Shown here piece after piece: positions 1-49,237 of a DNA stretch of 52,331 bases. The DNA comes from Chiloscyllium plagiosum (taxonomy: Eukaryota). The notes below the pieces were generated by a model. The model saw only the letters and a program-made list of their open reading frames with translations. It was not told the origin of the DNA and ran no database searches. The DNA lies in contig NC_057719.1 in the NCBI RefSeq assembly GCF_004010195.1, positions 20,922,881 to 20,975,211 of the forward strand. Direction: 5' to 3'. The stretch's first letter is position 1. Each line of letters begins with the position of its first letter. A program made the position numbers and the translations under genes.

Positions 1-290
1 AATTCCTAGAGGCATGGCACTCATCCACAGATTCTATCAACTAACACATCCACCTGGACCCAATATACCAGCCACTGGAGTGGATAGCTGGAACTGACAA
101 CCGGAAGCAGCAGAGACAAACCATTATAAATGCCAGAGGAAACATCACAGAAACGCTTCACAGGAGGCTCCCAAGCACTGAGGATGTCACCTAGATAGGG
201 GATGAAACGTCTGCAACACAAATTCCCAGCTTGGCGAACAGAACCACAACAACGAGCACCCGAGCTACAAATCTTCTCACAAACTTTGAA
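1..290 (+). mobile_element. Penelope-like element 3' end (GIY-YIG endonuclease C-terminus plus hammerhead-bearing terminus), family P
   Basis: Translates as FLEAWHSSTDSIN*HIHLDPIYQPL, the typical PLE endonuclease C-terminal motif. It is followed by a hammerhead core at 178-211 and is homologous to 30075-30411. Confidence 0.85.
178..211 (+). ncRNA. Minimal hammerhead ribozyme motif
   Basis: CTGAGGA-T-gtcacct agat aggggat-GAAAC-GTC: core boxes, an imperfect stem II, palindromic ACGT mini stem III and a GUC cleavage triplet. Confidence 0.65.
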
Positions 291-355
291 CTAATTAATA
301 TTGACAATCAAAACTATCTGTTGTTTTCTAGGAACTGTTTAGATTAAAAGATAAG

Positions 356-650
356 AAATTAGATTCCCTACAGTGTGGAAACAGGCCACTTGGCCCACAC
401 CAACCCTCTGAAGCATAACCCGCCCTGGGTTATTTCCCCTATATTTACTGATGCACCTAACACTATGATCAATTTAGCAGTGCCAATTTACCTGACCGCA
501 CATCTTCAGACTGTGGGAGGGAACGGGAGCAAACCCACGCAGACACAGAGAGAATGTGCAGGCTCCACACAGACAGTGGCTCAAGGCAGGAATTAAACCC
601 TGGTCCCTACCATTCTGAAGTAGCAGTGCTAACCACTGAGCCACCATGCC
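356..650 (-). mobile_element. HE1-like tRNA-derived SINE
   Basis: Reverse strand starts ggcatggtggctcagtggttagcactgc (Pol III A box) and ends gcctgtttccacactgtagggaatctaat. Confidence 0.85.
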
Positions 651-1179
651 AACCCTGCAGTTGCAATATAATACAGTTGTAGTGATAGACTTTTAAGGAG
701 ATATTTAATAATTCACCAACATTTATATCTCAAGATGAGAAAATCCTCTTTGAGAAAGATGCATTATCCGTGTCTAAATAAGGAGATTCGGGATTGTATT
801 AAATTGAAAGATACAGTACACTGATCTGCAGAAAGTTAGCAGTAGGTCAGAAATTGGATGGAATTTAAGATTCATTAAAGAATGACTAAAATACAGAACA
901 GTGTGCAATTGACAAAAATACAAGTAATAAGAGTTTCCGAAGATATTTGAAAAAGAAAAGGGTAAATAGAGCACGCCTTGGTCTATGATAGAGAGAATGT
1001 GGGGAATTAATAATGGGAAAGAAAGAAGTGTCAGAGGCTTTGAACACGCATTTTGATCATGGTAGAAGACTTTAAAATATACAAAAAATAATTGAAAATT
1101 AAGCAGTGATAGGGAAAGAAGAAATTTAAAAAAAAACATTCATCAAATGGAAAAGTGTACAAGGAAAACTTGGGCACAA

Positions 1180-1940
1180 CAATTCATCAATGACCTTCCC
1201 TCAGTCATAAGGTCAGAAGTGGGGATGATCACCAATGATTGCCCAGTATTCAGCACCATCCACAACTCCTCAGATACTGAAGCAGTCCGTGCTCAAATGC
1301 AGCATTTTCTGGACAATATCTAGGCTTGGACCAACAAGTGGCAAGTAACATTCATGCCACAGAAATGCTAGACAATGACCATTACCAGTAAGAGACACTC
1401 TAACCACCACCCCTTGACATTCAACAGTATTCAACCGTCACTGAATCCCCCACTGTCAACAGCCTTGGAGTTATCATTAACCAGAAACTCAGTTGGACTC
1501 AGCATATAAACACAGTGGCTACAAGAATAAGTTAGAGACTAGGGATACTGCGGCGAGTAACTCACCTCTTGAATCCCCAAAGTCTATCCATCATCAACAA
1601 GGCACATGTCAGGAGTGTGTTGGAATGCTTCCCACTTGCCTGGATGGGTGCAGTTCCAACAACACTCAAGAAGCTTGAAACCATCTAGGACTAAGCAACC
1701 CGGTTGATTGGCACCACATCCACAAACGTTCAATCCCTCCATCACTGAGTAGCAGCAGTGTGCACTACCTACAAGATGCACTGTAGAAATTCACCAAAGA
1801 TTCTTAGACAGCACTTTCCAAACCCACGACCACTTCCATCTAGAAGGACTTGGGAACACCACCACCTGCAAGATCCCCTCCAAGCCACTCACCACACTGA
1901 CTTGGAAATGTACCTGTTTCTTCACAGTCGGTGGGTCAAA
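1180..1940 (+). mobile_element. Degenerate CR1/L2-group LINE (family B), RT C-terminal part and 3' region
   Basis: Translates FINDLPSVIRSEVGMITNDC...DNI*AWTNKWQVTFMPQKC (degenerate FADD region of an RT). Similar to 6715-7255, 25625-26312 and 36608-37965. Confidence 0.75.
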
Positions 1941-2134
1941 GAGGTCAGTTAGATTTTATAGTGAAATTGCTAAAATCTATTATTTAGGGGGTTATAGTTT
2001 TGTGAAAGAGAATCTATTGCTTTTTATTTGAAGAAGTTGCATTCAAAGTGAATAAAGGAGAACCAGAAAATAAAGTGTACTTGGAATTCCAAAAGTAATT
2101 TGCTAAGGTTTCATCAAGGGATATTACAAAAGAT

Positions 2135-3652
2135 AATAGACAATAGGTGCAGGAGTAGGCCATTCTGCCCTTCGAGCCTGCATCACCATTCAATATGATC
2201 ATGGCTGATCATCCTTAATCAGTATCCTGTTCCTGCCTTATCTCCATAACCCTTGATTCCACAATCCTTGAGAGCTCTATCCAACTCTTTCTTAAATGCA
2301 TCCAGAGACTGGGCCTCCACTGCCCTCTGGGGCAGAGCATTCCACACAGCCACCACTCTCTGGGTGAAGAGGTTTCTCCTCATCTCTGTCCTAAAAGGTC
2401 CACCCCGTATTTTTAAGCTGTGTCCTCTGGTTCGGCACTCACCCATCAGCGGAAACATGTTTCCTGCCTCCAGAGTGTCTAATCCTTCAATAATCTTACA
2501 TGTCTCAATCAGATCCCCTCTCAGTCTTTTAAACTTAAGGATATACAAGTCCAGTCGCTCCAGTTTTTCAGTGTAAGGTAATCCCGCCATTCCAGGAATT
2601 GACCTCGTGAAGCTATGTTGCACTCCCTCAATAGCCAGAATGTCTTTCCTCAAATTTGGAGACCAGAACTGCACACAGTACTCCAGGTGTGGTCTCATTA
2701 GGGCCCTGTACAGCTGCAGAAGAACCTCTTTGCTTCTATACTCAATCCCTCTTGTTATGAAGGCCAGCATACTATTAGTCTTCTTCACTACCTGCTGTAC
2801 CTGCATGCTTACCTTCATTGACTGGTGTACAAGAACACCCAGATCTCTCTGTACTGCCCTTTTACCTAAATTGATTCCATTTAGGTAGTAATCTGCCTTC
2901 CTGTTCTTGCCGCCAAAGTGGATAACCATACATTTATCCACATTAAACTGCATCTGCCATGCATCTGACCACTCACCTAACCTGTCCAAGTCACCCTGTA
3001 ATCTCCTAACATCCTCCTCACATTTCACCTGCCACCCAGCTTAGTATCATCAGCAAATTTGCTAATGTTATTACTAATACCATCTTCTATATCATTAACA
3101 TATATTGTAAAAATCTGCAGTCCCAGTACTGATCCCTGCAGTACCCCACTGGTCACTACCTGCCATTCCGAAATGGAGCCGTTTATCACTATTCTTTGTT
3201 TCCTATCAGCCAATCAACTTTCAATCCAAGTTAGTACTTTGCCCCTAATACCATGCGCCCTAATTTTGCTTACTAACCTCCTATTTGGGACTTTATCAAA
3301 AGCTTTCTGAAAGTCCAGGTACACTACATCTACTGGATCTCCCTCATCCATCTTCAGAGTTACATCCTCAAAAAAGTCAAGAACATTAGTCAAACATGAT
3401 TTCCCCTTCATAAATCCATGCTGACTCTGACCTATCCTGTTACTACTATCCAGATGTGTTGTAATTTCATCCTTTATAATAGACTCCAGCATCTTTCCCA
3501 CCACTGAGGTCAGACTAACTGGTCTATAATTTCCTGCTTACTCTCTCCTACCTTTCTTAAAAAGTGGTACAACATTAGCCACCCTCCAATCCGCAGGAAC
3601 TGATACAACTGATCTATCAAACTCTGGAAAATAATCGCCAATGCATCCACGA
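2135..3652 (-). mobile_element. CR1 LINE, 5'-truncated, frameshifted ORF2 (RT), relatively young; nested in an older + strand CR1 remnant (~2010-2130 and ~3655-4000)
   Basis: ORFs 3214-3504, 3025-3213 and 2219-3028 carry YLDFQKAFDKV, GVLQGSVLG, KFADDTK, RPHLEYCVQFWSP and TRGHSLK. ATAAGA occurs at both ends (2135-2140, 3657-3662). Confidence 0.95.
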
Positions 3653-4095
3653 TGTGATAAGAGCACATGGTGCAGGGGATAATATATTAGCTTGGATAAA
3701 GGTTTAGTTAGCTAACAGGATTCAGAAAATTAGCATAATTGGATCTATTTGGCTTGGGAAACTGTCAGTAGTGCCAGAGGAATTAGTGCTGGCTCTCCAA
3801 CTATTTATAATCAATATTAATGATTTGAATGAGGGACTAAAGGTACAGCAGCTAAATTTGCCAATAACACCAAGGTAGTGAATAAGATATATAGATGGGA
3901 ACAAAATCTGGCAGATGGCATATAACATTAGCAAGTGTGGGATTTCCAATTTTTGCAAGTAGAAGGAGAAAAGCAGTGTATAAATAGAGAGAGATTTCAG
4001 AACTTTGTGACATTCTATTCTGAATTCAAAATAGAAAATCAGGTCCGACAAGACAGATGTACATTATTAGCCTCTTAGTTAATGTTTCTTTTTTA

Positions 4096-5545
4096 GAGTC
4101 ATAGAGCCATAGAAATGTACAGCGCTGAAATAGACTCTTCGGTCCAACTCATCCATGCCGACCAGATAACCTAACCTAATCTAGTCCCACCTGCCAGCAT
4201 CAGGCCCATATCCCTCCAAACCCCCCTATTCATATACCCGTTCAGATGCCTTTTAAATGTTGTAATTGTACCAGCCTCCACCACTTCCTCTGGCAGCTCA
4301 TTCCATACACATACCACCCTCTGCGTGAAAAAGCTGCCCCTTAGGTCCCTTTTATATCTTTCCCCTCTCACCCTAAACCTATGCCCTCTAGTTCTGGACT
4401 CCCCGATCCCAGGGAAAAGACCTTGTCTATTTCTACTATCCATGCCCCTCATGATTTTATGAACCTCAGCCTCCAACACTCCAGGGAAAACAGCCCCAGC
4501 CTGTTCAGCCTCTCCCTGTAGCTCAGATCCTCCAACCCTGGCAATATCCTTGTAAATCTTTTCTGAACCCTTTCAAGTTTCACAACATCTTTCCGATAGG
4601 AAGGAGACCAGAATTGCACGCAATATTCCAACAGTGGCCGAACCAATGTCCTGTACAGCCGCAATATGAACTTTCTACACCTATACTCAATGCTGTGACC
4701 AATAAAGGAAAGCATATCAAATGCCTTCTTCATTATCTTAGCTACCTGCAACTCCACTTTCAAGGAGCTATGAACTGCACTCCAAGGTCTCTGTTCAGTA
4801 ACACTCCCGAGGACCTTACCATTAAGTGTATATTAGTCCTGCTATGATTTGCTTTCCCAAAAATGCAGCACCTCACGTTTATCTAAATTAAACTCCATCT
4901 GCTACTTCTCAGCCCATTGGCCCATCTGATCAAGATCTCGTTGTAATCTGATGTAACCTTCTTCGCTGTCCACTACACCTCCAATTTTGGTGTCATCTGC
5001 AAATCATTTATATAAATGACAAAAAGTAGTGGACCCAGCACAAATCCTTGTGGCACTCCACTGGTCACAGGCCTCCAGTCTGTAAAACAACCCTCCACCA
5101 CCACCATTTGTCTACCTTCCAGTTGGTTCTGTATCCAATGGCTAGTTCTCCCTGTATTCCATGAGATCTAACCTTGCTAACCAGTCTCCCATGAGGAACC
5201 TTGTTGAATGCCTTACTGAAGTCCATATAGATAATGTCCACCACTCTGCCCTCATCAATCCTTTTTGTTAATTTTTCAAAAAACTCAATCAAGTTCATGA
5301 GACATGATTTCCCATGTAAAAAGCCATGCTGACTATCCCTAATCAGTCCTTGCCTTTCAAAATACATGTGCATCTTGTCCTTCAGGATTCCCTCCTACAA
5401 CTTGCCCACTACCAACATCAGGCTCACCAGTCTATAGTTCCCTGACTTTTCCTTACCACCTTTCTTAAACAGTGGCACCACGTTAGCCAACCTCCAGTCT
5501 TCCGGCACCTCACCTATGATTATCTATGATACAAACATCTCATGA
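4096..5545 (-). mobile_element. CR1 LINE, 5'-truncated, decayed ORF2
   Basis: Motifs YMDFSKAFNKV, RPLLEYCVQFWSP and TRGHRF, with an (ACTCTATG)n-like 3' tail at 4096-4115. Confidence 0.93.
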
Positions 5546-5629: not shown

Positions 5630-6090
5630 TGCAACAAGGTCAGCCAAGTTGATTAGATAGAAATTGCTGGAAAAGCTCAGCAGGTCTGGCAGCATCTGTA
5701 GAGAGAAATCAGTGCTAATATTTTGAATGGAGTGACCCTTCCTTAGAGCCATTTGAAGAGTAACTAGACCTGCAACATTAACTCTGATTTCTCTCCACAG
5801 ATGCTGCCAGACCTGCTGAGCTTTTCCAGTAATTTATATTTTTGTTTCTGATTTACAGCATTCACAGTTCTTTTGGCTTTTATTCGGCCTCACAGAAGAT
5901 GAGTTCCGTGACTGAGGGTGTTGATCTGATCCAATCAGGGACGCTGGCTGACAGATAAGAACAGGAGTGTCAGAGGTTCTGTTCACTCTGAGAGCTGGCT
6001 CAGAGGGAGTTGGATCATTGTCAACACCTTTCTACTTGTAAATGAAGAGTCACCTGGTGATGGAATGTCAGCCTCTGTGCAGTTACTTCT
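5630..6090 (+). mobile_element. Probable solo LTR, interrupted by a fold-back PLE derivative
   Basis: Begins TG. Contains CCAATCAG at 5931, a TATA-like gataagaa near 5954 and a degenerate polyA-signal-like gtaaatgaag near 6038, in LTR order. The family assignment is from recall only. Confidence 0.4.
5661..5882. mobile_element. Fold-back non-coding PLE derivative (family C, old)
   Basis: aaattgctggaaaagctcagcaggtctggcagcatctgt at 5661 is inverted at ~5797-5835. A decayed hammerhead lies near 5753-5779. Confidence 0.75.
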
Positions 6091-12798: not shown

Positions 12799-13444
12799 CA
12801 GGTCAGAAGTCACACGACATCAGGTTGTAGTCCAACAGGTTTATTTGCTATCACAAGCTGTTTCATCAACTGAAATGAAGAGAAGCATATAGGAATAGAA
12901 TTTTTTTGTAATTATCTTTCCGCCTCAATTAATTGGATCATAGGTCATCCCCTTCATTTACTATTCAGCTGTTGACATTTTACTCACACTCTCCGACACT
13001 TTTTATCTAGAAGAAAGTGAGGACTACAGATGATGGAGATCAGAGCTGAAAAATGTGTTGCTGGAAAAGCGCAGCAGGTCAGGCAGCATCAAAGGAGCAG
13101 GAGAATCGACATTTCAGGAATTCCTAAAGAAGGGCTTATGCCCGAAACATCGATTCTCCTGCTCCTTTGATGCTGCCTGACCTGCTGCGCTTTTCCAGCA
13201 ACACATTTTTCAGCTCTGACACTTTTTATCACCAACAAGACTTATTACTCAGCTTAACGACATTCCACTCACACTATTTGTATGACCTATTGATCTCTCT
13301 GGCGATAACTTCTGTGTCTGAAAGCTTTGCTTCTCTTCACCTGATGAAGGAGCAGTGCTTCAAAAGCTTGTGATTGGACTATCACCTGGTGTTGTGTGAC
13401 TTCTGACCTTGTCCACCCCAGTCCAACACCGGCACCTCCACATC
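12799..13444 (+). mobile_element. Non-coding PLE derivative with inverted termini (family A), with target-site duplication
   Basis: aggtcagaagtcacacgacatcagg at the left is inverted at ~13384-13409, followed by a 3' extension to 13444. Hammerhead at 13341-13369 (G12 mutated). Flanked by atagtctgcac (12788-12798) and atagtctgtac (13445-13455). Confidence 0.8.
13008..13217. mobile_element. Fold-back mini PLE derivative (family B), nested in the family A element
   Basis: Perfect ~68 bp inverted arms (13042-13109 vs 13150-13217), a mutated hammerhead at 13124-13151, and a 13-bp TSD gacactttttatc (12995-13007, 13218-13230). Confidence 0.88.
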
Positions 13445-14430: not shown

Positions 14431-14802
14431 GGTAAAAACAATGACTGCAGATGTTGGCAACCAGAGTTTTGATTAGTGGTGCTGGAAGAGCACAGCAGTT
14501 CAGGCAGCATCCGAGGAGCAGTAAAATCGACGTTTCGGGCAAAAGCCCTTCATCAGGATTAAAGGCAGGGAGCCTGAAGTGTGGAGAGATAAGCTAGAGG
14601 AGGGTGGGGGTGGGGAGAAAGTAGCACCAGGCGTCTGGTGGTGAGGGAGCGGCGGTGAAGGAGGCCCAGGACCTCCATGTCCTCGGCAGAGTGGGAGGGG
14701 CAGTTGAAATGTTGGGCCACAGAGCGGTGTGGTTGATTGGTGCGGGTGTCCTGGAGATGTTCCTTAAAGTGCTCTGCTAGGAGGCGTCCAGTCTCCCCAG
14801 TG
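14431..14802 (-). mobile_element. Penelope-like element fragment (family B): GIY-YIG part fused to hammerhead terminus
   Basis: Translates TGETGRLLAEHFKEHLQDTRTNQPHRSVAQHFN, a GIY-YIG segment, and carries an intact hammerhead at 14529-14556. Confidence 0.88.
14529..14556 (-). ncRNA. Minimal hammerhead ribozyme motif, intact core
   Basis: Reverse strand reads CTGATGA-A-GGGC TTTT GCCC-GAAAC-GTC. Confidence 0.8.
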
Positions 14803-27451: not shown

Positions 27452-29000
27452 TGGCAGGGTGGCTCAGTAGCTAGCATTGCTGCTTGACTATACTAGGGAC
27501 CCAGGCTTGATTCCAATGTTGGGCAACTGTGTAGAGTTCTGGATTAGTGGTGCTGGAAGAGCACAGCAGTTCAGGCAGCATCCAAGGAGCTTCGAAANNN
27601 NNNNNNNNNNNNNNNNNNNNNNNNNNNNNNNNNNNNNNNNNNNNNNNNNNNNNNNNNNNNNNNNNNNNNNNNNNNNNNNNNNNNNNNNNNNNNNNNNNNN
27701 NNNNNNNNNNNNNNNNNNNNNNNNNNNNNNNNNNNNNNNNNNNNNNNNNNNNNNNNNNNNNNNNNNNNNNNNNNNNNNNNNNNNNNNNNNNNNNNNNNNN
27801 NNNNNNNNNNNNNNNNNNNNNNNNNNNNNNNNNNNNNNNNNNNNNNNNNNNNNNNNNNNNNNNNNNNNNNNNNNNNNNNNNNNNNNNNNNNNNNNNNNNN
27901 NNNNNNNNNNNNNNNNNNNNNNNNNNNNNNNNNNNNNNNNNNNNNNNNNNNNNNNNNNNNNNNNNNNNNNNNNNNNNNNNNNNNNNNNNNNNNNNNNNNN
28001 NNNNNNNNNNNNNNNNNNNNNNNNNNNNNNNNNNNNNNNNNNNNNNNNNNNNNNNNNNNNNNNNNNNNNNNNNNNNNNNNNNNNNNNNNNNNNNNNNNNN
28101 NNNNNNNNNNNNNNNNNNNNNNNNNNNNNNNNNNNNNNNNNNNNNNNNNNNNNNNNNNNNNNNNNNNNNNNNNNNNNNNNNNNNNNNNNNNNNNNNNNNN
28201 NNNNNNNNNNNNNNNNNNNNNNNNNNNNNNNNNNNNNNNNNNNNNNNNNNNNNNNNNNNNNNNNNNNNNNNNNNNNNNNNNNNNNNNNNNNNNNNNNNNN
28301 NNNNNNNNNNNNNNNNNNNNNNNNNNNNNNNNGAGATGCGTTGGAGGGCATCTTTAACCACGTGGGAAGGGAAATTGCGGTCTCTAAAGAAGGAGGCCAT
28401 CTGGTGTGTTCTGTGGTGGAACTGGTCCTCCTGGGGGCAGATACGGCGGAGGCGGAGGAATTGGGAATACAGGATGCCATTTTTGTAAGAAGTAAGGTGG
28501 GATGAGGTGTAATCCAGGAAGCTGTGGGAGTAGGTGGGTTTGTAAAAAATGTCAGTGTCAAATCAGTCGTCGTTAATGGAGATGGAGAGGTCAGGAAGGG
28601 GAGGGAGGTGTCAGAGATGGTCCAGGTAAATTTAAGGTCAGGGTGGAATGTGTTGGTGAAGTTGATGAATTGCTCAACCTCCTCGCGGAAGCACGAGGTG
28701 GCACCAATGCAGTCATCAATGTAGCGGAGGAAGAGGTGGGGAGTGGTGCCGGTGTAATTATTGAAGATCAACTGCTCTGTATGTTTTCCCTGTGTCTGCT
28801 TGGATTTCCTGCGGGTGCTCTGGCTTCCTCCCACAGTCCAAAGATGTGCAGGTTTGGATGGATTGGCCATGCTAAATTACCCATATTGTCCAGGGATGTG
28901 CAGGTTAGGTGGATTAGCCTTGGGAAATGCAGGATTACAGGGATGAGGTGGACTTGATGGGCCAAAAGACCTGCTCCCACACTGTAGGGATTGTATGATT
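27452..29000 (+). mobile_element. HE1-like SINE split by a PLE insertion (5' part ~27452-27537, 3' part ~28780-29000)
   Basis: ggcagggtggctcagtagctagcattgc head; the SINE body resumes after the PLE and ends cacactgtagggatt. Confidence 0.8.
27538..28778 (-). mobile_element. Penelope-like element (family B), RT fragment; assembly gap 27598-28332 inside
   Basis: LFLRYIDDCIGA..FINFTNTFHPDLKFTWTISDTSLPFL is the PLE RT catalytic YIDD region. The 3' terminus matches the 14431 copy. Confidence 0.92.
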
Positions 29001-30074: not shown

Positions 30075-30411
30075 TTGTTGACTTGCTTGTTGAGCTGGTA
30101 CGTTTGCAGACATTTCATTGCCATATCAGGTAACATCATCAGTCTGCCTCTGGTGAAACGTTGTTGTTCTGTCCAGCTTGCAATTTTTGTGTGCGTCCCA
30201 GTTTGCTGAGGTGAGTGATATCATTTCTGGTTTTGTTTCTTAGTGGCTGATATATGGAGTCTAACTCTACATGTTTGTTCATGGAGTTCTGAGTTGAATG
30301 CCAGGCCTCCAGGAATTCTTGTGCATGCCTTTGCTGACTTTGTGCTAGAATGGATGCGCTGTTCCAGTCGAATCACTGTCCTTCTTTGTCCGTGTGTACA
30401 GACACAAGTGA
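30075..30411 (-). mobile_element. Penelope-like element 3' fragment (family P)
   Basis: Reverse strand translates SLVSVHTDKEGQ*FDWNSASILAQSQQRHAQEFLEAWHSTQNSMNKHVELDSIYQPL. Decayed hammerhead CTGATGA-tgttacc..ggcaat-GAAATGTC at 30108-30142. Confidence 0.88.
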
Positions 30412-32360: not shown

Positions 32361-34009
32361 TTGTAGAAACAAAGATAAATAGAATAATGGAGCAGTAGAC
32401 CATTCAGCCCTTCAAGCCTACTCCGCCATTCAATATGATCATGGCTGATCATCCAACCCAACACTCTATTTCTGTTTTCTCCCCATAACCTTTGCTCCCT
32501 TTACCTGGAAGAACTGTTGTCCATGCTTTAGACACTTTGACCAGTTTGTGTACTAAAAACACTTTATCCAAGAGCTCTTGTTTGTCAGGCCAGTAAAAGG
32601 GTACAGAATTTGGTTTGTGCTTCAACTCAATTTTACTAACAAAATATTCCATATTTAAATTCCAACATGCAAGCATTTCCCAAATACCCATATTATTTAT
32701 TCTCTATCTAGCTCCACCTGTCTGTGAAAGGGTATTAACAGCAATGATCCATGTGTTTGAGCTGAGCCTGTGGAATCTCCTTCGTAGAGCTGGCTGTCTT
32801 CCACAAAGGTGAGTCTTGCAGGTCAGGGCAGATCTTCTCTCTCTCTCTCTAGGTTGAGCCAGGTTGAGTTTTCACTGAGGCTGTGTGTGCTTTTATTCTT
32901 TCACCATCCCCCCCACCCCCTCCAGATTCCCTTGCTCTCACACCAGACCTTCCAAAATGTTCTGTTGCCTTTGTCCAATGGGGTCACACCTAACCTTTCA
33001 CTGTTGTTAGCTGGGAGATGTACAGTGCACATACTCAGGCAATCAAGAACTTCTGATCAACATTCTCCAATACACAAACACCAGGTTGGTTGCAATTGGT
33101 TCCCCTTGACCTTTGTAGCCTTTTTGACCTTGGTTTCCACTGTTCTCTGTAGCCAACAGCTACTGGCTGCTGTTTCATTTTGTTTAGCCAATTTTCCGTC
33201 AAGCCTGATTTCTCCAGCTGTGGGTTAACTTAAAATATCAAATTTTGGGCACATGAGCTATTTTGTATGCTTTGGATAGGGATGGGGAAGGAATTAATAT
33301 CCCTGAAGAAGAGTCATATTAGACTTGAAATATCAACTGTTTCTCTCTTTACAAATGCTACCACACCAGCTGAGTTTCAGATCGCAATAATTTGCAAGTA
33401 CTTTGCTTTTCTTTTAGTATTTGCTACTTCACAGACTATGGAACACAGAGTGATCAGGGAATTGAGCACTTCTTTGATAGAGTGAGAGGAATTGGATTCA
33501 AACAGGAATTCGCTGGTAAGTAGTCTTTTGCTGAAATTCAGTTCAACATCTAAAATTTGTCTTAGAACTTTGAAAATCATTAAAAAAAACTTTTAGGTTT
33601 CTAAGATGTCTGGCTAACTGAAGCTGCTAATCAGTGGTAGTTTGCTGTCAGTGAGCAGAAGTGTTTGTCTCAATAGGTGTTAATCACTGCAATGGCAAAC
33701 TGAATTCGGAATTCTCATTTAAGTTTTGGTCATAAGCTCCATGTAAATGATTAGCATTTGCTAACACAGAATGGGTAGCATAGAGTGCTGACGTCTGCAA
33801 TTTGGTACAAAAGGGAATTTAGTGCAAAGAGGAAGGAAAAGCTCCTTTTGTATTTTTTGATCCAATAGCTTGTGAGGGAATATTCCCTTCTTTAGTATTG
33901 CACAAGCAATAGTGAATATAGTGACAAAGCAGGATAAGAATGAACAAATTCAAATGCTTGGTATCAAAAAGATTGTCCAAATTTTCCTCTCAAGCCTCAA
34001 CTGGTGATT

Positions 34010-34380
34010 GTAGAACAGCGGATGCTGTAAATCAGAAATAAAAACAAAAGTTGCTGGAAAAGCTCAGCAGGTCTGGCAGCATCTGTGAAGAGAAATCAGA
34101 GTTAACGTTTCAGGTCTGGTGACCCTTCCTCAGAACTGATGGTAGCTAGAAAAATGTCAGTTTCCATGCAGAAGACAGGGTGTGGGGGAGGCAGTACGGA
34201 GTAAATGACAGTTTGGGATAGAGCTCAAAGAGAGAACAGTTAGAAAGCCAAAGGAGCAGATAACGATCCAGCTAGGAGGCTGAGGAGCTGAATAGCTGTT
34301 AATAGAGAGTGTTAATGGCTAACATTACGTAGTGTGTAATGGCAGAATGTGTGATAACAAGGCCTGGTGTGCGCGGGTGG
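34010..34380 (-). mobile_element. PLE terminus (family C) with hammerhead motif
   Basis: Same terminus as 5661-5882. Reverse strand 34104-34133 reads CTGAGGA-A-GGGTC ACCA GACCT-GAAAC-GTT, flanked by gtt/aac that can form stem I. Confidence 0.75.
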
Positions 34381-38237: not shown

Positions 38238-38705
38238 AAAGCACAGCAGAACAGGCAGCATCCAAGGAGCAGGAGAATCAACATTTCGGGTAAGAGCCCT
38301 TCATCAGGAATGAGGCTTGTGATCCGAGGGGGTAGAGAGATAAATGGGAGGGGGAGATGGGACTGGGGGGAAGGTAGCTGGAAGTGCGATAGGTAGATGA
38401 AGGTGAGGGTAAAGATGATAGGTCAGAGAGGAGGTTGATGCGGATAGGTGGGAAGGAAGAAGGACAGGTAGGACATGTCATGAGGGTGGTGCCGAGTTGG
38501 AAGGTTGGATCTGGGATAACGACAGGGACAGGGAAATGAGGAAACTAGTGAAATCCACATTGATATCCTGTGGTTGGAGGGTCCCATGGTGAAAGATGAG
38601 GTGTTCTTCCTCTGGGCATCGGGTGGTTAGGATAAGGCAGTGGACTGTCATTTCTCCTGTTCCTTGGAGGCTGCCTGACCTGCTGTGCTTTTCCAGCACC
38701 ACACT
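38238..38705 (-). mobile_element. PLE 3' fragment (family B) with short inverted terminus
   Basis: EEEHLIFHHGTLQPQDINVDF, a hammerhead at 38280-38307 on the minus strand, and an inverted arm at ~38653-38705. Confidence 0.85.
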
Positions 38706-39494
38706 CCCATCTCAAACAAGTGTGCTGTTTTAGAAAATATACGGGGTGATGAACTCTCAGGGGAATGTAGCACAAACAGCCAAATTTCTGCTACTAAGAA
38801 TGGTTCTAATGTAATGAGGGGTATGTCAAGTTCAAAGCAATCGATTGTGATAGGGGACTCTCTAGTCAGTGGTAGAGACAGACAGTAGCTGGCAGTGAGA
38901 AATCAGGATGATGTGTTGCCACCCTGGCGTCAGGACCAAGGTTATCTCAGAGAAGGTGCAGAATGTTATCAAACAGGAGAAGGACCAGCAGGAGATTCTT
39001 GGACACATTGGCACTAATGATATAGGAAGAGAAAAGGATGAGATTCAGAAGGGAGAATATAGAAAGTTAGGCAGGAATTTAAAAAGGAGTTCCTCAAGGG
39101 TAGTAATAGCTGGATTACTCCTGGTGCTACGAGTTAGTGAGGGTAGGAATAGGAGGTTAGAGCAGATGGATGTGTGGCTGAGGAGGTGCTGCAGGGGAGA
39201 AGGGATAACATTTTTTGGATCATTGGAATTTTGTCTGGGATAGAAGTGACCTGTACAAGAAGGGCAGATTGCACCTGAACTGGAAGGGGACAAATAGACT
39301 GATAGGGAGATTTGCTAGAGCTGCTCGGGAGGATTTATAATTGTAAGGTAGGGGTGGGACCCAGGAAGACAGTGAGGAACGAGATCAATCTGAGACTGGT
39401 ATGATTCGGAGATGCCGGTGTTGGACTGGGGTGTACAAAGTTAAAAATCACACAACACCAGGTTATAGTCCAACAGGTTTAATTGGAAGCACAC

Positions 39495-39523
39495 TAGCTT
39501 TCGGAGCAACGCTCCTTCATCAG
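39495..39523 (-). ncRNA. Minimal hammerhead ribozyme motif, intact
   Basis: Reverse strand reads CTGATGA-A-GGAGC GTT GCTCC-GAAAG-CTA, flanked by cac/gtg (stem I). Confidence 0.8.
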
Positions 39524-40660
39524 GTGATTGTGGAGGGCTCGATCGTAACACAGAATTTATAGCAAAAATTTACAAGTGTGATGTAACTGAAATTATACAT
39601 TGAAAAATACCTTGATTNNNNNNNNNNNNNNNNNNNNNNNNNNNNNNNNNNNNNNNNNNNNNNNNNNNNNNNNNNNNNNNNNNNNNNNNNNNNNNNNNNN
39701 NNNNNNNNNNNNNNNNNNNNNNNNNNNNNNNNNNNNNNNNNNNNNNNNNNNNNNNNNNNNNNNNNNNNNNNNNNNNNNNNNNNNNNNNNNNNNNNNNNNN
39801 NNNNNNNNNNNNNNNNNNNNNNNNNNNNNNNNNNNNNNNNNNNNNNNNNNNNNNNNNNNNNNNNNNNNNNNNNNNNNNNNNNNNNNNNNNNNNNNNNNNN
39901 NNNNNNNNNNNNNNNNNNNNNNNNNNNNNNNNNNNNNNNNNNNNNNNNNNNNNNNNNNNNNNNNNNNNNNNNNNNNNNNNNNNNNNNNNNNNNNNNNNNN
40001 NNNNNNNNNNNNNNNNNNNNNNNNNNNNNNNNNNNNNNNNNNNNNNNNNNNNNNNNNNNNNNNNNNNNNNNNNNNNNNNNNNNNNNNNNNNNNNNNNNNN
40101 NNNNNNNNNNNNNNNNNNNNNNNNNNNNNNNNNNNNNNNNNNNNNNNNNNNNNNNNNNNNNNNNNNNNNNNNNNNNNNNNNNNNNNNNNNNNNNNNNNNN
40201 NNNNNNNNNNNNNNNNNNNNNNNNNNNNNNNNNNNNNNNNNNNNNNNNNNNNNNNNNNNNNNNNNNNNNNNNNNNNNNNNNNNNNNNNNNNNNNNNNNNN
40301 NNNNNNNNNNNNNNNNNNNNNNNNNNNNNNNNNNNNNNNNNNNNNNNNNNNNNNNNNNNNNNNNNNNNNNNNNNNNNNNNNNNNTGGAATCAATCTAAAC
40401 ATTAGGTCATAGACAGAGAACACAGGGGGCTAACACCTTCAACATATTGTCTAGCTATCACCATTGTTAACAGCTAACCTGAGAATGCAACTTTAAAAAA
40501 GTGTTTTGTGATTTACACATGAAAGAAGTGAAGCTATCACTGTATTCTAACAGATGAAAGGCTTAACAGATAATCAATTCTTCAATGTATAATTTCAGTT
40601 ACATCACACTGCAAATATTTGCTATAAATTCTGTGTTACGATCGAGCCCTCCACAATCAC

Positions 40661-40689
40661 CTGATGAAGGAGCGTTGCTCCGAAAGCTA
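40661..40689 (+). ncRNA. Minimal hammerhead ribozyme motif, intact
   Basis: cac-CTGATGA-A-GGAGC GTT GCTCC-GAAAG-CTA-gtg, with palindromic AGCT mini stem III and CUA triplet. Confidence 0.8.
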
Positions 40690-42395
40690 GTGTGCTTCCA
40701 ATTAAACCTGTTGGACTATAACCTGGTGTTGTGTGATTTTTAACTTTGAGACTGGTATAGTTGGGAAAAGGAACTAGTCAAACAGTCAGGGCAGCAGGAA
40801 CAAAGCAGAGAACAAGGTGGGTCTAATAAATTAAACTGCATTTATTTCAATACAAGGGGCCTAACAGGGAAGGCAGATGAACTCAGGGCATAATTAGGAA
40901 CATGGGACTGGGATATTATAGCAATTACAGAAATATGGCTCAGGGATGGACAGGACTGGCAGCTTAATGTTCCAGATACAAATGCTACAGGAAGGATAGA
41001 AAGGGAAGAAAGAGAGGAGGGGGAATGGCTTTTTGATAAGGGAGAGCATTAAGCTGTACGGAGGGAGGATATTCCTGGAAATACATCCAGGGAAGTTATG
41101 TGGGTGGAACTGAGAAATAAGATAGGGATGAACACCTTATTGGGATTGTACTGTAGTCAGTGGGAAATTGAGAAACAAATTTGTAAGGAGATCTCAGACA
41201 TCTGTAAGAATAATTGGGTGGTTATGGTAGGGGATTTTAACTTTCCAAACAGAGACTGGGACTGTCATAGCGTCAAGGGTTTAGATGGAGAGAAATTTGT
41301 TCAATGTGTACAAGAAAAAATTCTGATTCAGTATGTCGATGGACCTACTAGAGAAGGTGCAAAACTTGACCAACTCTTGGGAAATAAGGCAGGGCAGGTG
41401 ACTGAGGTGTCAGTGGGGGAGAACTTTGGGGCCAACGCCCATAATTCTATTAGTTTTAAAATAATGATGGAAAAGGATAGATCAGATCTAAAAGTTGAAG
41501 TTCTAAATTAGAGGAAGGCTAATTTTGATGGTATGAGGCAAGAACTTTCGAAAGCTGATTGGGGGCAGATGTTCACAGGTAAAGGGATGGCTGGAAAATG
41601 GGAAGCCTTCAGAAATGAGATAACGAGAATCCAGAGAAAGTATATTCCTGTTAGGGTGAAAGGAAAGGCTGGTAGGTATAGGGAATGCTGGATGACTAAC
41701 GAAATTGAGTGTTTGGCTAAAAAAAGAAGGAAGCATATGTCACGTATAGACAGGAGAGATCGAGTGAAGTCTTACAAGAGAATAAAGGCAGTAAGAGTAT
41801 ACTTAAGAGGGAAATCAGAAGGGCAAAAAGGGGACATGAGATAGCCATGGCAATTTGGGTTAAGGAAAATCCAAAAGGTTTTTACAAATACATTAAGGAC
41901 AGAGGGTAACTAGGGAGTGAATAAGGCCCTTCTAAGATCAGCAAGGTGGCCTATGTGTGGAGCCTCAGGAGATGGGGGAGATATTAAATTAGTATTTTGC
42001 ATCAGTGTTAACTGTAGAAAAGTACATGGAAAATATAGAATGTATGGAAATAGATGGTGACACCTTGAAAAATATCCATATTATAGAGGAGGAAGTGCTG
42101 AATGTCTTAAAACACACAAAGGTGGATAAATCCCCAGGATCTGATCAGATGTACCCTCAAACACTGTGTGAAGCTAGGGAAATGATGCTGGGCCCCTTGC
42201 TGAGATATTAGTATCACTGAAGTCATAGGTGAGCTGCCGGAAGACTGGAGGTTGGCTAATGTGGTACTACTATTTAAGAAAGGTGGTAATGAAAGGCCAA
42301 GGAATTACAGACCTGTGAGCCTGACATCGGGGTGGTGGGGAAGTTGTTGGAGGGAATCCTGAGGGACAGCATTTACATGCATTTGGAAAGGCAAG

Positions 42396-42607
42396 AACTC
42401 TATGATACTTTCTCCCCACCCCCACCCCCACCCCCCTCTCATTTATCTCTCCACTCTGCAGGCACCCTGCCTCTATTCCTGATGAAGGGCTTTTGCCCGA
42501 AACCTCGATTTTCCTGCTCCTCGGATGCTGGCTGACCTGCTGTGCTTTTCCAGCACCACTCTAATCTAGACTCTGGTTTCCAGCATCTGCAGTCCTTGTT
42601 TTTGCCT
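42396..42607 (+). mobile_element. PLE terminus (family B) inserted in CR1 ORF2
   Basis: Hammerhead CTGATGA-A-GGGCTTTTGCCC-GAAAC-CTC at 42479-42506. CR1 reading resumes at aaggactgattagg. Confidence 0.85.
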
Positions 42608-43674: not shown

Positions 43675-45777
43675 GTAAATAGACAAGATCTTTTCCATGG
43701 GGTCGGAGAGTCCAGAACTAGAGGGCATAGGTTCAGGGTGAAAGGGGAAAAATTTAAATGGGAGCTAAGGGGCAACATTTTCACACGGGAGTGGTGTGTA
43801 TATGGAATTAACTGCTGGAGGAAGTAGTGGAAGCTGGTATAATTACAACATTTAAAAGGCATCCAGATGGGTATTTGACTAGGAAGGGTTTAGAGGGATA
43901 AAGGCCAAATGCTGGCAAATGAGACAAGATTAAGTTGGGATATCTGGTTGACATGGACAAGTTGGACCGAAGGCCCTGTTTCCATGCTGTGCATCTCTGT
44001 GACTCTATGACTCTCAGATCTGCCAGACCTGGAATTATAACAGTGCCACTGGGAGGAGTGGCCATTGTTAGAACTACAGACAGTCCAATGAGGTGAAGTC
44101 TCAGGCCAGAGTGGAGGTAATTGTCAGGGATATGGGAGGAGAGGTGAGGAGAGGGAGAGATGACTGGACCGATGGAGCACCAAGGGGAAGCAGATCTTGG
44201 GATTGTTTTGTGAGGGCCCGGTATTGATAGAAAACGAATTGCGAAAAAGATCAAAGGCATGAATTCCCTAGGTTTCCCAGCTGAGCATGAGTTGACCTAC
44301 CAAGCAACATCTCTTCCATCTCCTTGCACCAAGCCATTTCTAACCTCCTCTGTCTGTTCTCAAAATTAAGACTGAGTGAAAAGGCACTCCAGGCCATCCT
44401 AGACTTACACTGGACCGAGTCTACCCCTTTTAAATTGAGAATCGGTGAGGAGCAGGCAAGAGGGTAGTGGGAAGAACATTTGAGTCATTTTAGGGACACC
44501 CACAACTAGAATTATGCTGGTAGGGGCCTGTAAAGTTCTGCCAAGAGCTGCTGAGCTTGGGTCTGAGAATTAGACATGGTGGGACACTAAGTGGCAAGTG
44601 TAACCTGAGGACATTGTTCCAAGAGGCAATCACACCTGTTAGATTCAGTCGAGGTTTAAAAGATTGCAGGGTGGTAAACAAATTGACTATAGTCATAGAG
44701 ATCAATTCGAGCAGAGGAAGTGAAAAATTAAGTGGTAGGAATGGGGAGAATATTGGAGAAAATGAGGACTGCAGATGTTGGAGATCAGAATCAAAAAGTG
44801 TGGCGCTGGAAAAGCACAGCAGTTCAGGCAGCAGCTGCGGAGCAGGAGAGTCGATGTTTTGAACATAAGCCCTTCATCAGGAAAGTGTGTGGGGTGGGAT
44901 TGGGGGTGCTGAGAGGAGAGGGGAGGGGCTGGGCAGAAGATAGCCAGGAATGCGATACGTAGATGAACGTGGTGGGTGATGGTGATAGGTCGGAGCGGAG
45001 GGTGGAGCGGATAGGTGGGAAGGAAGATGGACAGGTAGGATAGTTCAAGAGGGCAGTACTGAGTTGGAGGGTTGGATCTGGGATAAGGTGGGGGGAGGCG
45101 GGGTTGAGTAAAATGCTGCTGAAATCGACAGTGATGCTGTGTAGTCGGAGAATCCCAAGATGAGGTGTTCTTCCTCCAGGTGTTGGTTGGCTAGGATTTG
45201 TCCCGTGTGGTTGAAGGGGACACCATAGTTAGGGGACTGTAGAGAAATCCCTGCAGCCATGTCTGCGAGTTACCAACCAAGCCCTCATGACTGGTGGAGA
45301 TGAATCATGAGCAAGAGGGGAAGGATCCAATTGTTGTTGTCCATGAAGGAATCTATGAAATAAATCGAACTAAGAATAACATTTTGCAATGGGTGTTTGA
45401 AGAATTATGATCCAAATTAGAATGTAAAATCTGAAAGGTCATAATTTTGAATTGTTAACTAAACCATTTATCAATTTGCAAAAGGATTAACAAATTGGAA
45501 GGTGAGACATGTAACTGCACTATTACTTAGTAGGTCACTAGAACCAGTATTGAGAAAAGAGGAAGCTATTCCGCTGAGATGGGCTCCTGGTAAATTGTGG
45601 TCAATCAAATAACTAGAGCAGCACTAATAAAAAAAGAAATGAGTGGAGGAATTTGGAGAATAGTAAATTGAAGAGCAATCGAAGAAATACCTCTGGAGCA
45701 GAGTAAAACGGTGTTTGGGGGATAAAAAATCGTAAAACACCAGGACCAGGAAAGCACAAGGTCAAAGGGCATTAGTG
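43675..45777 (-). repeat. Right arm of ~2.1 kb inverted duplication
   Basis: Ends aaagcacaaggtcaaagggcattagtg, the reverse complement of cactaatgccttttgaccttgtgcttt at 34382. Confidence 0.92.
44755..45208 (-). mobile_element. PLE 3' fragment (family B), absent from the left arm
   Basis: LEEEHLILG, a decayed hammerhead at 44853-44880, and terminus ggagaaaatgaggactgcagatg. Confidence 0.82.
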
Positions 45778-46251: not shown

Positions 46252-46580
46252 GACTGGGCGCTTCCTAGCAGAGCGCTTTAGGGAACATCTCCGGGACACC
46301 TGCACCAATCAACCAAACCGCCCCGTGGCCCAACATTTCAATTCCCCCTCCCACTCTGCCGAGGACATGGAGGTCCTGGGCTTCCTTCACCGCCGCTCCC
46401 TCACNNNNNNNNNNNNNNNNNNNNNNNNNNNNNNNNNNNNNNNNNNNNCTAGCTTATCTCTCCATGTTTCAGGCTCTCTGCCTTTATTCCTGATGAAGGG
46501 CTTTTGCCCGAAACGTCGATTTTGCTGCTCGTCGGATGCTGCCTGAATTGCTGTGCTCTTCCAGCACCACTGATCCAGAA
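46252..46580 (+). mobile_element. PLE fragment (family B): GIY-YIG part plus hammerhead terminus
   Basis: ETGRFLAERFREHLRDTCTNQPNRPVAQHFN and an 11-bp TSD tccgggtttga (46241-46251, 46581-46591). Confidence 0.9.
46490..46517 (+). ncRNA. Minimal hammerhead ribozyme motif, intact core
   Basis: CTGATGA-A-GGGC TTTT GCCC-GAAAC-GTC. Confidence 0.8.
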
Positions 46581-47869
46581 TCCGGGTTTGATCCCAGCCT
46601 TGGGAATTGGTGGAATTTGCACATCCCCCCATGTCTGTGTGGTTTTCTTCTACAATCCGAAAGATGTCCAGGTTAGCTGAATTGGCCAAGCTAAATTTTC
46701 TTGTGTTCAAGGATGTGTTGGTTAGGTGAATTCGTCGGGGGTACATTTAGAATAATGGGGAATGGGTTGGGTGGAATACTCTTCGGAGGGTCTGTGTGGA
46801 CTTGTTGGGCCGAATGGCCTGTTTCCACAGTGTAGGAATTCTAATACTTAGCTTTTTGAAGGAATGGGAAAAATGATACAGGAAGTGGGGTGATTTGCTA
46901 ATAAAAGATGGGAGACAGACAGCAGAGAGAAGAGGATTTTGGATCAAAACATCAGGAAGTAGAAACACGTTAGGTTAAGCGAAGAAGCAGCAGAAACATT
47001 AAACTTTTAGAGAGATGCTTACAGGCCCCTTAACAGTAGTTGTAGTGTCAGGATGAGTATAAATCAGGAATTTACAGGTGTACATAATGATGACAAAATA
47101 TAAAATGGTGTAAAATGGAGTCTTTAACCTTCAAGTCAACTGGAAATATCAAATTTACAATAAGGCAATGGAAGGTGGGTTCAGAGAGTATACACAAGTT
47201 CTTCCTTTCTCAGCATGTCAAGAAACTAACTTTAGAAAATGATTTCAAGTGGTGCAATGAGAAAGGGTTGATTAAAAGCCTTGTGCTAAAAAAGCATTTA
47301 GGAAAGAGTGACAAAATATAAACCTCTACTTTTGTCCTCCTGTCTCACCATGGACCACTCCATCCCTGATAAAACCTGGCCAATCAGGTTTGTGAACAGC
47401 CTTCTGCCCAGATGTCATTTGTGACTGTTACATGACAAATTAATGCCCACCTATGGGCCTCATCCTGCCACTGTTGCCATTAAACAAATGGCAGGCATGA
47501 GACGGGGGGTTGAGGGTGAAATGACAAGCTAAAAATACCTTTTTTAGGTTTCCTTGTGGCCCTGTGGTCCACTAGAGTTTGGTCCCTCATTCACAGGCAC
47601 TCGTATCTGGTCACAAGACTGTCATTTACAAAGGGATATCTTGCTGAAAGGCAACGCACTTTCTTTCCCTTTGAAATCCTCTCTGTCAAATCTCACCTGC
47701 AATTCCCATTTCACCTTCACTGACCTTTCTCTAGGGATCTAGCGATGGCTACTGGTGAATGCCCAGGTGAATTACTGGAATCAGCTATCAATATTAATTT
47801 GCAATACCAGCTTTTTTAAATTTTATTCACATAAGTTGAGCATCGCTGCTCGGTTAGAACATCTTTTCC

Positions 47870-48330
47870 CATCCCTCAATAGATCATCTTTCATTCTTTG
47901 AAACTCCAGGAAATTTGGGTCTAGATATTCAATCTCTCCTCACAGATCAGTCACCTCATTCCCAGAAGCAGTCTGGTGAACCTTAATTGCCCTCCTTGGA
48001 TATGAAGATAAAGGCTGTATGCAGGTGTGGCCTCAGGAATGTCCTTTGTAATTGTAATAAGATTTCTCTACTTGTATACTCTAATCTATTTGTTGTAGAA
48101 ATATTGCACTGTTTTCCCACCTAGTTGCTCGCTGTGTCTGCATATTAACTTCCTTTGATTCATGTAAAAGCATAGCTAGGCCCCTCGAAGTGCAACATTT
48201 TCTACATACTGATGTTAGGCTGACTAGCCAAAGGTTGTCTATTTTTGCTTTCCCTCCTTTTTATGTCCTGAGGGAATGTTTGCTATTCTCCAATCCCTAG
48301 AAACTGCTGTAAAATTTAAGAAATATTCTG
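47870..48330 (-). mobile_element. Very old CR1 remnant
   Basis: Degenerate match to 2520-2840 and 3500-3640 type sequence. Confidence 0.55.
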
Positions 48331-48467
48331 GGAGATCAAAACCAATGGACTTCTGTGGCTTCCATTTTTAAACCCACGATGACATAAAATCAGCTCCAAC
48401 TGTTTACTGCGGCTTAGTCCCGTTCATTTCTGTGGATAATATTTCTTACACTAACTTCTTTAAGATC

Positions 48468-49237
48468 ATGACGTGGAGGTGCCGGTGTTGGACTGAGCTG
48501 GACAAAGTTCAAAATCACACAACACCAGGTGATAGTCCAACAGGTTTATTTGGAAGCACTAGCTTTCCGAGAGGTGCTCCTTCCTCAGGTAACGAGTGGG
48601 GCAGGGTCATAAGACACAGAATTTATTGCAACAGATCAAAGTGTCGTGCAATTAAAATGATGTACTGAACAAACCCAGATTGTCGTAAGGTCTTTCATCT
48701 TATAAAATGGGTTGCAGGTTTCGGTTCATTAACATGTAAATTCCAGAACATCTTTTAAGCCACCTTCTCGAGGTAACTTAAGGTTTTTATTAAAAAAATG
48801 ACCCTCAACTCAATGTATTAAAGGTGTGAGATTAGAGTGTCTGTATCCCAATCTAGAGTCAGACTGATTCTATTTCCAAAATAGGAATTAAAAAAAAAAT
48901 GTTACATGGCTTGACTGCCTGCAGGTTGTGTGCTATTTGAGCAAAATTAGAATGAATCTGCAAATACAATCGTGCAAATGCAAATTCACCCAATAGACTT
49001 ATCTGTGTGTGTGTGTGCATGTGAGGGGAAGAGAGAGAGTGAGTGAGTGTGTGCAATCTAGGTTTATTCAATATATCATTTGAATTGCATGACATTGAGA
49101 TCTTTTTCTACAAATTCTGCAAAAGATCTCAGTGTCATGCTCCACTCGTTACCTGAGGAAGGAGCACCTCTCGGAAAGCTAGTGCTTCCAAATAAACCTT
49201 TTGGACTATAACCTGGTGTTGCGATTTTTAAACTTTT
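48468..49237 (-). mobile_element. 770-bp non-coding PLE derivative (family A) with inverted hammerhead-bearing termini
   Basis: ~48505-48599 is the reverse complement of ~49142-49236. Hammerheads at 48560-48588(-) and 49153-49181(+). 9-bp TSD tttaagatc (48459-48467, 49238-49246). Confidence 0.88.

What the first reader, a model, noticed from the sequence alone, without database searches (positions are those of the whole stretch)
178..49181. About 15 minimal hammerhead ribozyme motifs from at least four Penelope-like families
Seen: CTGA(T/G/A)GA + one extra base + short stem II + GAAA + NNTH recurs. Cores are intact or near-intact at 178(+), 14529(-), 34104(-), 38280(-), 39495(-), 40661(+), 42479(+), 46490(+), 48560(-) and 49153(+); they are decayed at 13124, 13341, 30108, 33303 and 44853. 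Stem II differs between families yet stays paired (GGGC/GCCC, GGAGC/GCTCC, GGGTC/GACCT). Mini stem III is palindromic in two versions (ACGT, AGCT). This covariation argues for a real RNA structure. Established: PLE termini carry minimal type I hammerheads, which are thought to cleave as dimers through the palindromic stem III. Inference: this genome is seeded with self-cleaving motifs at roughly one per 3-4 kb in this window, which could cut read-through transcripts.
Basis: partly seen in the sequence, partly recalled or inferred. Interest (0 to 1): 0.7.

Follow-up and report, generated by a model that had tools for sequence, protein, structure and literature searches.

The report
Penelope hammerheads spare host transcripts
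These are real copies of a tiny, predicted self-cutting RNA motif carried on the end-pieces of Penelope-type jumping genes, a known pairing, here in about 200,000 copies in what is likely a shark genome, and intact copies sit in large genes about as often on the gene's strand as against it, so they likely do not cut host transcripts much.

Summary
Observation confirmed. All 15 motifs are present, and ten have an intact catalytic core. A strict scan gives 8 in the window against 0.02 in shuffles. The genome holds 205,793 pattern matches against 272 for the control. They are minimal type I hammerheads at the 3' ends (pLTRs) of Penelope-like elements, a link published in 2014: three of four family groups were tied to RT/GIY-YIG coding sequence, the fourth less firmly. 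Two motif pairs are single head-to-head insertions with target duplications. Core positions resist inherited variants but take private mutations about as often as flanks, so selection likely acts on source elements, not on these copies. The inference that they cut read-through transcripts is not supported: in four large genes, intact cores lie 55 sense to 65 antisense (p=0.41). Of 437 copies, 103 begin just before the motif and 6 at the cut site, pointing to an uncut template. Family-B RNAs are polyadenylated about 30 nt after the predicted cut. Cleavage was not tested. This scan has reported the same motifs, 5'-end pattern and poly(A) site on other shark DNA. New member of a known kind.

The parts
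175..214 (+). Family C1 (Poseidon-type PLE) hammerhead motif, C3 178, predicted cut after 211; 3' end of a head-to-head insertion whose other arm (C3 at about -2903) and RT/EN remains lie just before the window
   Evidence: duplication TTAATATTG at -2983 and 295
5714..5747 (-).
13120..13155 (+). Decayed family A2 motif at the centre of a head-to-head stub pair (13012-13219), nested in a family B2 pair
   Evidence: duplication ACTTTTTATC at 12998 and 13221
13338..13372 (+). Decayed family B2 motif, right arm of the pair 12794-13447
   Evidence: duplication ATAGTCTG at 12788 and 13445
14525..14560 (-). Intact family A1 motif (C3 14556, cut 14529; 4 bp stem I, 4 bp stem II, ACGT), downstream of a GIY-YIG endonuclease fragment
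27537..28876 (-). Family A PLE copy with RT motif RYIDD (28334-28876), an N gap and a 3' end that lacks the motif
30106..30145 (-). Decayed motif of the family C2 type (C3 30142); stem I reduced to one pair
   Evidence: family assigned by eye
33300..33337 (+). Decayed family D-type motif; stem I lost
   Evidence: family assigned by eye
34100..34137 (-). Family D motif with intact core (C3 34133, cut 34104), G-U at the base of stem II
38276..38311 (-). Family A2 motif with intact core, weakened stem II and stem III ATGT
39403..40746 (.). One family B1 head-to-head insertion in a CR1-type LINE, with two identical intact motifs on opposite strands (C3 39523 -, C3 40661 +); only the left arm has the tail; an N gap lies between them
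   Evidence: duplication TGAGACTGGTAT at 39391 and 40747
40701..40721 (+). ATTAAA signal (40701-40706) and family-B poly(A) addition sites (40718, 40721), 29-32 nt after the predicted cut
   Evidence: 261 and 321 reads with untemplated A tails; the reads are mostly from other copies of the family
42475..42510 (+). Family A1 motif with intact core but non-palindromic stem III (ACCT)
44849..44884 (-). Decayed family A2 motif (C3 44880), G12 lost
46252..46580 (+). Family A1 insertion inside a SINE; intact motif at 46486-46521 (C3 46490, cut 46517)
   Evidence: duplication TCCGGGTTTGA at 46241 and 46581
48468..49237 (.). One family B2 head-to-head insertion with two motifs (C3 48588 -, C3 49153 +) that share the loss of the G10.1-C11.1 pair
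   Evidence: duplication TTTAAGATC at 48459 and 49238

Best explanation
The motifs are minimal type I hammerheads carried on truncated 3' end-pieces (pLTRs) of Penelope-like retrotransposons; they are likely kept functional only in the active source elements, where two copies on one RNA would pair through the palindrome, probably with help from the element's protein, while the scattered genomic copies likely decay neutrally and rarely cut anything. Shown here: the motif, its place at the element's 3' end and again just ahead of the ORF in a partial tandem, head-to-head insertions with target duplications, a pile-up of copy 5' ends at the start of stem I and not at the cut, a core free of inherited variants, and no sense-strand depletion in large genes. 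Inferred: that the element's RNA starts at the first letters of the motif; that reverse transcription primed 55-100 nt downstream copies mostly uncut RNA and so mass-produces motif-bearing stubs; that cleavage needs a dimer and the protein (taken from other species' PLEs).
For: PLE identity: RT (PF00078) and GIY-YIG (PF01541) in family A loci, RT in a family B locus flanked by two motifs (all scores just under Pfam's cut-offs); relatives of the B protein carry RT and often GIY-YIG, best hit a shark protein at 68%; Poseidon-type RT/EN motifs upstream of the 178 copy. Partial tandem EN end - pLTR with motif - ORF start at G000:C7:83.79 Mb. Head-to-head same-family pairs within 50 bp: 92, against 0 tail-to-tail. 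5' ends: 103 of 437 at -6..-1 before C3 (17 per nt), 6 at the cut +/-1 (2 per nt, background 1.8); among 218 copies at least 88% identical, 62 versus 7 per 6 nt, background 4.3; 18 of 57 solo stubs show a target duplication of 7 bp or more against 3 in a shifted control. Selection: inherited variants in 2 of 72 core columns against 46 of 270 flank columns (p=0.0009); private substitutions 0.0151 core versus 0.0154 flank in 281 copies. Strand: intact cores 55 sense to 65 antisense; each CSMD-like gene carries 9, 9 and 15 intact sense motifs. Papers: PMC4209133 (monomer inactive, dimer weak), PMC11167929 (protein-assisted, dispensable for insertion, uncut RNA the main template).
Against: No cleavage was measured. 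In the 111 long copies private substitutions were lower in the core (0.020 versus 0.030), and rare substitutions were lower in both sets (p=0.004 and 5e-5), which fits unresolved subfamilies but also weak selection on copies. Solo copies of any state were fewer in sense (67:93, p=0.048; 49:76, p=0.02 with a wider pairing rule), though not more so when intact (25:31). The strand test covers only four genes and allows a deficit of up to about 40%. No full pLTR-ORF-pLTR copy was recovered (N gaps). No RT was tied to family D. BLAST ends blur 5' positions by a few bases. The transcription start is inferred from DNA ends only.
Confidence: 0.82

Rival explanations
1. The dispersed copies cut host read-through or intronic RNA at a biologically relevant rate, as monomers or by long-range pairing of same-strand copies.
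For: About 200,000 core matches. 15 of 96 same-strand intact neighbours lie within 5 kb, the distance that separates pLTRs in a full element. Solo copies show a mild sense deficit. A sense-strand trimer with 300 bp spacing exists in one CSMD-like intron.
Against: No excess deficit for intact cores. Genes with collinear open exons carry 9-15 intact sense motifs each. None of the nine window motifs folded has the hammerhead as its minimum-energy fold, alone or as a homodimer (such folding cannot score the core). No pile of read starts or ends at the cut in one poly(A) run (weak, since the 3' product would be too short to see). Published monomers are inactive.
Confidence: 0.1
2. The motif is kept as a protein-binding, promoter or RNA-folding element at the start of the PLE transcript, and cleavage is marginal even in active elements.
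For: Copy 5' ends mark the motif's first bases, not the cut. The commonest families (A1, A2) have a U.U mismatch in stem I. Cleavage was dispensable for insertion in vitro (PMC11167929). Naiad and most Chlamys PLEs lack the motif (PMC8557442).
Against: All catalytic positions are the same in the eight subfamily majority motifs while N7 and the stems vary with pairing kept, as expected for catalysis. The lizard motif does cleave and responds to C3/G8 mutations (PMC11167929).
Confidence: 0.2
3. The main effect on host RNA comes from the family-B poly(A) signal, not from the ribozyme: inserted copies end host transcripts.
For: 582 reads carry A tails 12-15 nt after ATTAAA; 114 more at the matching place of the B2 copy at 12825; 68 of 90 B copies keep the hexamer.
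Against: No sense deficit of hexamer-intact B copies in the three CSMD-like genes (26:28; solo 7:12, p=0.36). The reads cannot be assigned to host or element transcripts. One run only.
Confidence: 0.25
4. The motifs are chance or non-structural repeat sequence.
For: No Rfam hammerhead hit.
Against: 8 versus 0.02 in shuffles; 205,793 versus 272; compensatory changes in stems I, II and III between families.
Confidence: 0.01

Closest known systems
[quoted passage not shown]
   Same: Type I core, extra base between 9 and 10.1, G10.1-C11.1, palindromic 15.2-16.2, several consensus families per genome, mostly solo copies, pairs on opposite strands
   Different: Copy number: about 165,000-206,000 pattern matches here against about 4,000 (coelacanth) and 9,000 (Xenopus) there, by a different search method. 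Stems are short (I 2-4 bp, II 4-7 bp). No shark is named in the parts read.
Poseidon element PAc of Anolis (Frangieh et al. 2024, PMC11167929; passages and second half of the main text read)
   Same: Motif in the pLTR, two 3' ends 30-40 nt apart (tail), uncut RNA as the likely template, no read ends at the cut
   Different: There the ORF starts inside stem II; in family A the likely start (MPALKK) lies about 140 nt after the cut. Activity was measured there, not here.
EN+ PLE insertions with inverted pLTR, tail and target duplication (Arkhipova et al. 2013, PMC3846280; Craig et al. 2021, PMC8557442; passages read)
   Same: Head-to-head arms, tail on one arm, 8-12 bp duplications, partial tandems; Cys-rich RT-EN linker in family B as in Neptune
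   Different: Here most copies are 90-130 bp stubs that start at the motif.
Non-LTR retrozymes (Li et al. bioRxiv 10.64898/2026.07.22.740005; parts 1-2 of 5 and passages read)
   Same: Type I hammerheads derived from PLE pLTRs; found in the one chondrichthyan sampled
   Different: Retrozymes are tandem arrays; the window has none, and tandem units are rare in the sample (2 same-strand neighbours within 200 bp).

Membership tests
PLE minimal type I hammerhead | Core CUGANGA ... GAAA ... UH | tested here: met
   10 window copies; all 8 subfamily majority motifs
PLE minimal type I hammerhead | Unpaired base between A9 and G10.1; G10.1-C11.1 pair | tested here: met
   A or T in all subfamilies; G-C in 7 of 8 majority motifs, G-T in C2; lost at 48588 and 49153
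PLE minimal type I hammerhead | No stem III loop; palindromic 15.1-16.1 | tested here: met
   ACGT or AGCT in 6 of 8 majority motifs; ATGT in C2 and ATAT in D, likely CpG decay
PLE minimal type I hammerhead | Covarying stems I and II across families | tested here: met
   First stem I pair C-G, A-T, T-A; second T-A, A-T, C-G; stem II pairs vary. A1 and A2 have a T.T mismatch at the third stem I pair.
PLE minimal type I hammerhead | Located in the pLTR of a PLE | tested here: met
   Families A, B, C; family D only by likeness of its 3' flank to A
PLE minimal type I hammerhead | Self-cleavage as a dimer or with protein | not testable with these tools
   No assay; read ends are uninformative
EN+ Penelope-like element | Single ORF with RT then GIY-YIG | tested here: met
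   PF00078 and PF01541 in L082 and L083, below curated cut-offs; motifs in family C; all copies seen are broken
EN+ Penelope-like element | Direct pLTRs on both sides of a whole ORF | tested here: inconclusive
   Partial tandem seen; no complete copy among the loci fetched
EN+ Penelope-like element | Inverted 5'-truncated arm, optional tail, target duplication | tested here: met
Neptune clade (families A, B, D) | Cys-rich linker between RT and EN; RT phylogeny | tested here: inconclusive
   CxxxxCxxC in the B locus L096; degraded in A copies; not seen for D; no tree built
Penelope/Poseidon clade (family C) | No Cys-rich linker; RT phylogeny | tested here: inconclusive
   Motifs VSFDVTALF and YVDD read by eye, no linker seen; clade label recalled; no tree built
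Non-LTR retrozyme | Tandem units, each with a hammerhead | tested here: not met
   None in the window; one trimer elsewhere

The most novel reading that the evidence does not exclude
A unit-length element mRNA would begin with one hammerhead (start about 5 nt before C3, cut about 35 nt in) and, in family B, end with the other (cut about 30 nt before the poly(A) tail). The closed-loop mRNA, or the element's own protein, would bring the two halves together, and one dimer would remove cap and tail at once: a built-in switch from messenger to ligatable unit-length RNA or to decay. That would explain why the core is conserved although insertion uses uncut RNA, and why 200,000 solo copies are harmless.
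Probability: 0.15. Interest if true: 0.7.

Novelty: new member of a known kind. Interest (0 to 1): 0.27.

Why it matters
The role of PLE hammerheads is an open question (PMC7761336 and PMC8557442 passages). This genome has far more copies than the published examples and several young families, so it gives statistical tests that small genomes cannot: where the RNA starts, whether the template is cut, and whether hosts purge sense copies. The answers here are negative for host cutting and agree with published in vitro work, so the finding is mainly confirmatory.

Tried and rejected
Rfam scan: no hammerhead model matched. Host gene in the window: 0 of 100 unmasked frames of 48 aa or more matched Pfam, and unique bins had almost no RNA depth in the two stretches laid (21 of 52 kb; no RNA holder was listed), so whether the window is intronic stays open. 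Run X14 laid no reads. Thermodynamic folding did not favour the hammerhead fold and was not used as evidence for activity. The MAFFT alignment of 13 motifs misplaced the stems and was dropped. The first core-versus-flank test (3.5% versus 6.8%) was biased by end trimming and was redone. A 3.5 kb pairing rule counts chance neighbours (41 convergent controls). Family A3 was left out of the 5'-end and conservation counts because it has no upstream consensus (12 of 449 copies). The duplication search gave only 5-7 bp, unconvincing matches for 7 of 13 insertions tried. No complete two-pLTR element was found in the 20 long loci or in 30 ORF-start loci. Lunse et al. 2017 was not held; only its title was seen in reference lists. 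No clade tree was built.
Full report
Observation. All 15 sites carry the motif CTGANGA, one extra base, a short stem II, GAAA and NNTH. A strict descriptor (stem II at least 3 bp, stem I at least 2 bp, UH) finds 8 in the window against a mean of 0.02 in 200 shuffles, and 37 in the 237 kb of called sequence around it. Genome-wide, CTGANGAWGN{8,16}CGAAASSTH matches 164,541 times against 65 for the reversed control; allowing C or T before GAAA and a longer stem gives 205,793 against 272 in 3.56 Gb. In my 1.397 Mb sample, 80 of 99 matches to that pattern also had stem II, a 2 bp stem I and a palindrome; 46 had a 3 bp stem I. Several 'intact' copies are damaged outside the core: 48588 and 49153 lack the G10.1-C11.1 pair, 42479 has lost the palindrome, and 38307 has a weakened stem II and III. 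Rfam returned no hammerhead.

What carries them. The motif lies 55-100 nt from the 3' end of Penelope-like elements. Family A loci hold RT and GIY-YIG domains (scores just under the cut-offs); a piece of that RT is in the window at 28334-28876 and drew 214,483 first-look candidates in the genome. A family B locus has two motifs flanking an RT with a Cys-rich linker; its best relative is a shark protein at 68% identity, which is my basis for calling the host a likely shark. The 178 copy is the end of a 3.3 kb head-to-head insertion with RT and endonuclease motifs of the Poseidon type (label recalled). Family D was linked only through its 3' flank's likeness to family A. One locus shows endonuclease end, pLTR with motif, then ORF start, so the motif also sits at the 5' end of the downstream unit, as published for PLEs. 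In the window, 39523/40661 and 48588/49153 are single inverted insertions with 12 and 9 bp target duplications, and the 46490 copy splits a SINE with an 11 bp duplication. In the sample, 92 same-family pairs lie head to head within 50 bp and none tail to tail. This layout is described in PMC3846280 and PMC8557442 (passages read).

Structure and selection. The eight subfamily majority motifs share every catalytic base while stems I and II change in compensating pairs and stem III is ACGT or AGCT in six of them. In 111 long copies, inherited variants occupy 2 of 72 core columns and 46 of 270 flank columns (p=0.0009), and N7 is free. Private substitutions are equal in core and flank in the larger set (0.0151 versus 0.0154, 281 copies) and somewhat lower in the long set (0.020 versus 0.030); rare substitutions overall are lower in the core in both sets. 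The simplest reading is purifying selection on source elements and near-neutral decay afterwards; weak selection on copies is not excluded.

Where copies begin. Following a lead from earlier notes, I mapped 5' ends. Of 437 copies (A3 left out), 103 start 1-6 nt before C3, at the start of stem I, and 6 start within 1 nt of the cut, at background level; the less diverged subset gives 62 versus 7. Of 57 solo stubs, 18 have a target duplication against 3 in a control, so many are true ends. This fits an RNA that starts at the motif and is copied uncut, as measured for the Anolis element, whose hammerhead cleaves only with the protein and is not needed for insertion (PMC11167929). The start site itself is inferred.

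Do they cut host RNA? I sampled three CSMD-like genes (1.2 Mb, orientation verified by collinear CUB and Sushi exons) and 90 kb of an EGF-repeat gene (orientation). Intact cores lie 55 sense to 65 antisense (p=0.41, 95% CI 0.37-0.55), all copies 176 to 202, and each CSMD-like gene carries 9-15 intact palindromic sense motifs. Intact and other copies have the same ratio (Fisher p=1.0). Against this, solo copies of any state are mildly fewer in sense (67:93, p=0.048), but not more so when intact (25:31). Intact same-strand neighbours are a median 17.7 kb apart, and the inverted pairs lie on opposite strands, so they cannot form a dimer in one transcript. Published single motifs did not cleave and dimers did so weakly (PMC4209133). 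Efficient host cutting is therefore unlikely; a small effect is possible.

RNA. In one single-cell poly(A) run, reads of family B end in A tails at 40718 and 40721 (261 and 321 reads), just after ATTAAA and about 30 nt after the predicted cut, and at the matching place of the copy at 12825 (114 reads). The reads are mostly from other copies (83 of 3,742 at 99% or more). No pile of starts or ends appeared at any cut site, which is weak evidence in such a library. Hexamer-intact B copies show no sense deficit (26:28). No host exon was found in the window.

Comparison and novelty. This is the min-HHR of Cervera and De la Pena in every sequence feature I could test; only cleavage is untested. Library searches for hammerhead with Penelope and shark (one review, where 'shark' refers to the shape), with cartilaginous (none) and for pLTR with polyadenylation (two papers, neither on this point as far as seen) found no shark-specific account, but the library is partial, and a 2026 preprint reports retrozymes in one chondrichthyan. 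The copy number exceeds the published 4,000 and 9,000 by about twentyfold or more, with different methods. This scan has already noted the motifs in at least 36 genomes, along with the 5'-end pattern, the lack of strand bias and the poly(A) site; those notes are not independent support. Verdict: real, a new member of a known kind, with the host-cutting inference not supported. Interest 0.27.

Noticed in passing
G000:C4, about 116,661,900-116,662,650 (L193-L194): Three family A1 units in tandem, about 300 bp apart, each with motif and two running into the ORF start; two cores are intact. It lies on the sense strand of a CSMD-like intron and looks like a small retrozyme, the best candidate seen for a real dimer.
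   Followed up: partly
sample-wide; fragment at window 35272-35320: Family A3 is very young (11 of 12 copies at least 97% identical to consensus), has a perfect 4 bp stem I and showed no long upstream part in 7 copies; it may be a recently active stub family.
   Followed up: partly
window 35192-35269 and 35321-35398: An exact 78 bp direct duplication flanks the 50 bp A3 fragment; unusually long for a target duplication.
   Followed up: no
window 34946-36554 and 43676-45636: A 1.6 kb sequence occurs twice in opposite orientation at 87-93% identity; its frames matched no Pfam family (one frame tested). Unidentified repeat.
   Followed up: no
window 12794-13447: A palindromic A2 insertion is nested inside an older head-to-head B2 insertion, each with its own target duplication.
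   Followed up: partly
family A and D ends, e.g. window 42530-42555: CTGAC followed by a pyrimidine run and CAG lies just after the motif and resembles a branch point and splice acceptor; an upstream ATG lies 19 nt after the cut.
   Followed up: no
L016 (G000:C1, about 68.74 Mb): A family B copy lies within 1.5 kb of a frame that looks like a geminin or multicilin coiled-coil exon (label recalled).
   Followed up: no
window 2219-5540, 41053-43640, 50691-52331 and others: Most other repeats are CR1-type LINE pieces and a tRNA-like SINE (labels recalled; one endonuclease piece matched PF14529); 57% of the window is repeat by self-comparison with the fetched loci.
   Followed up: no
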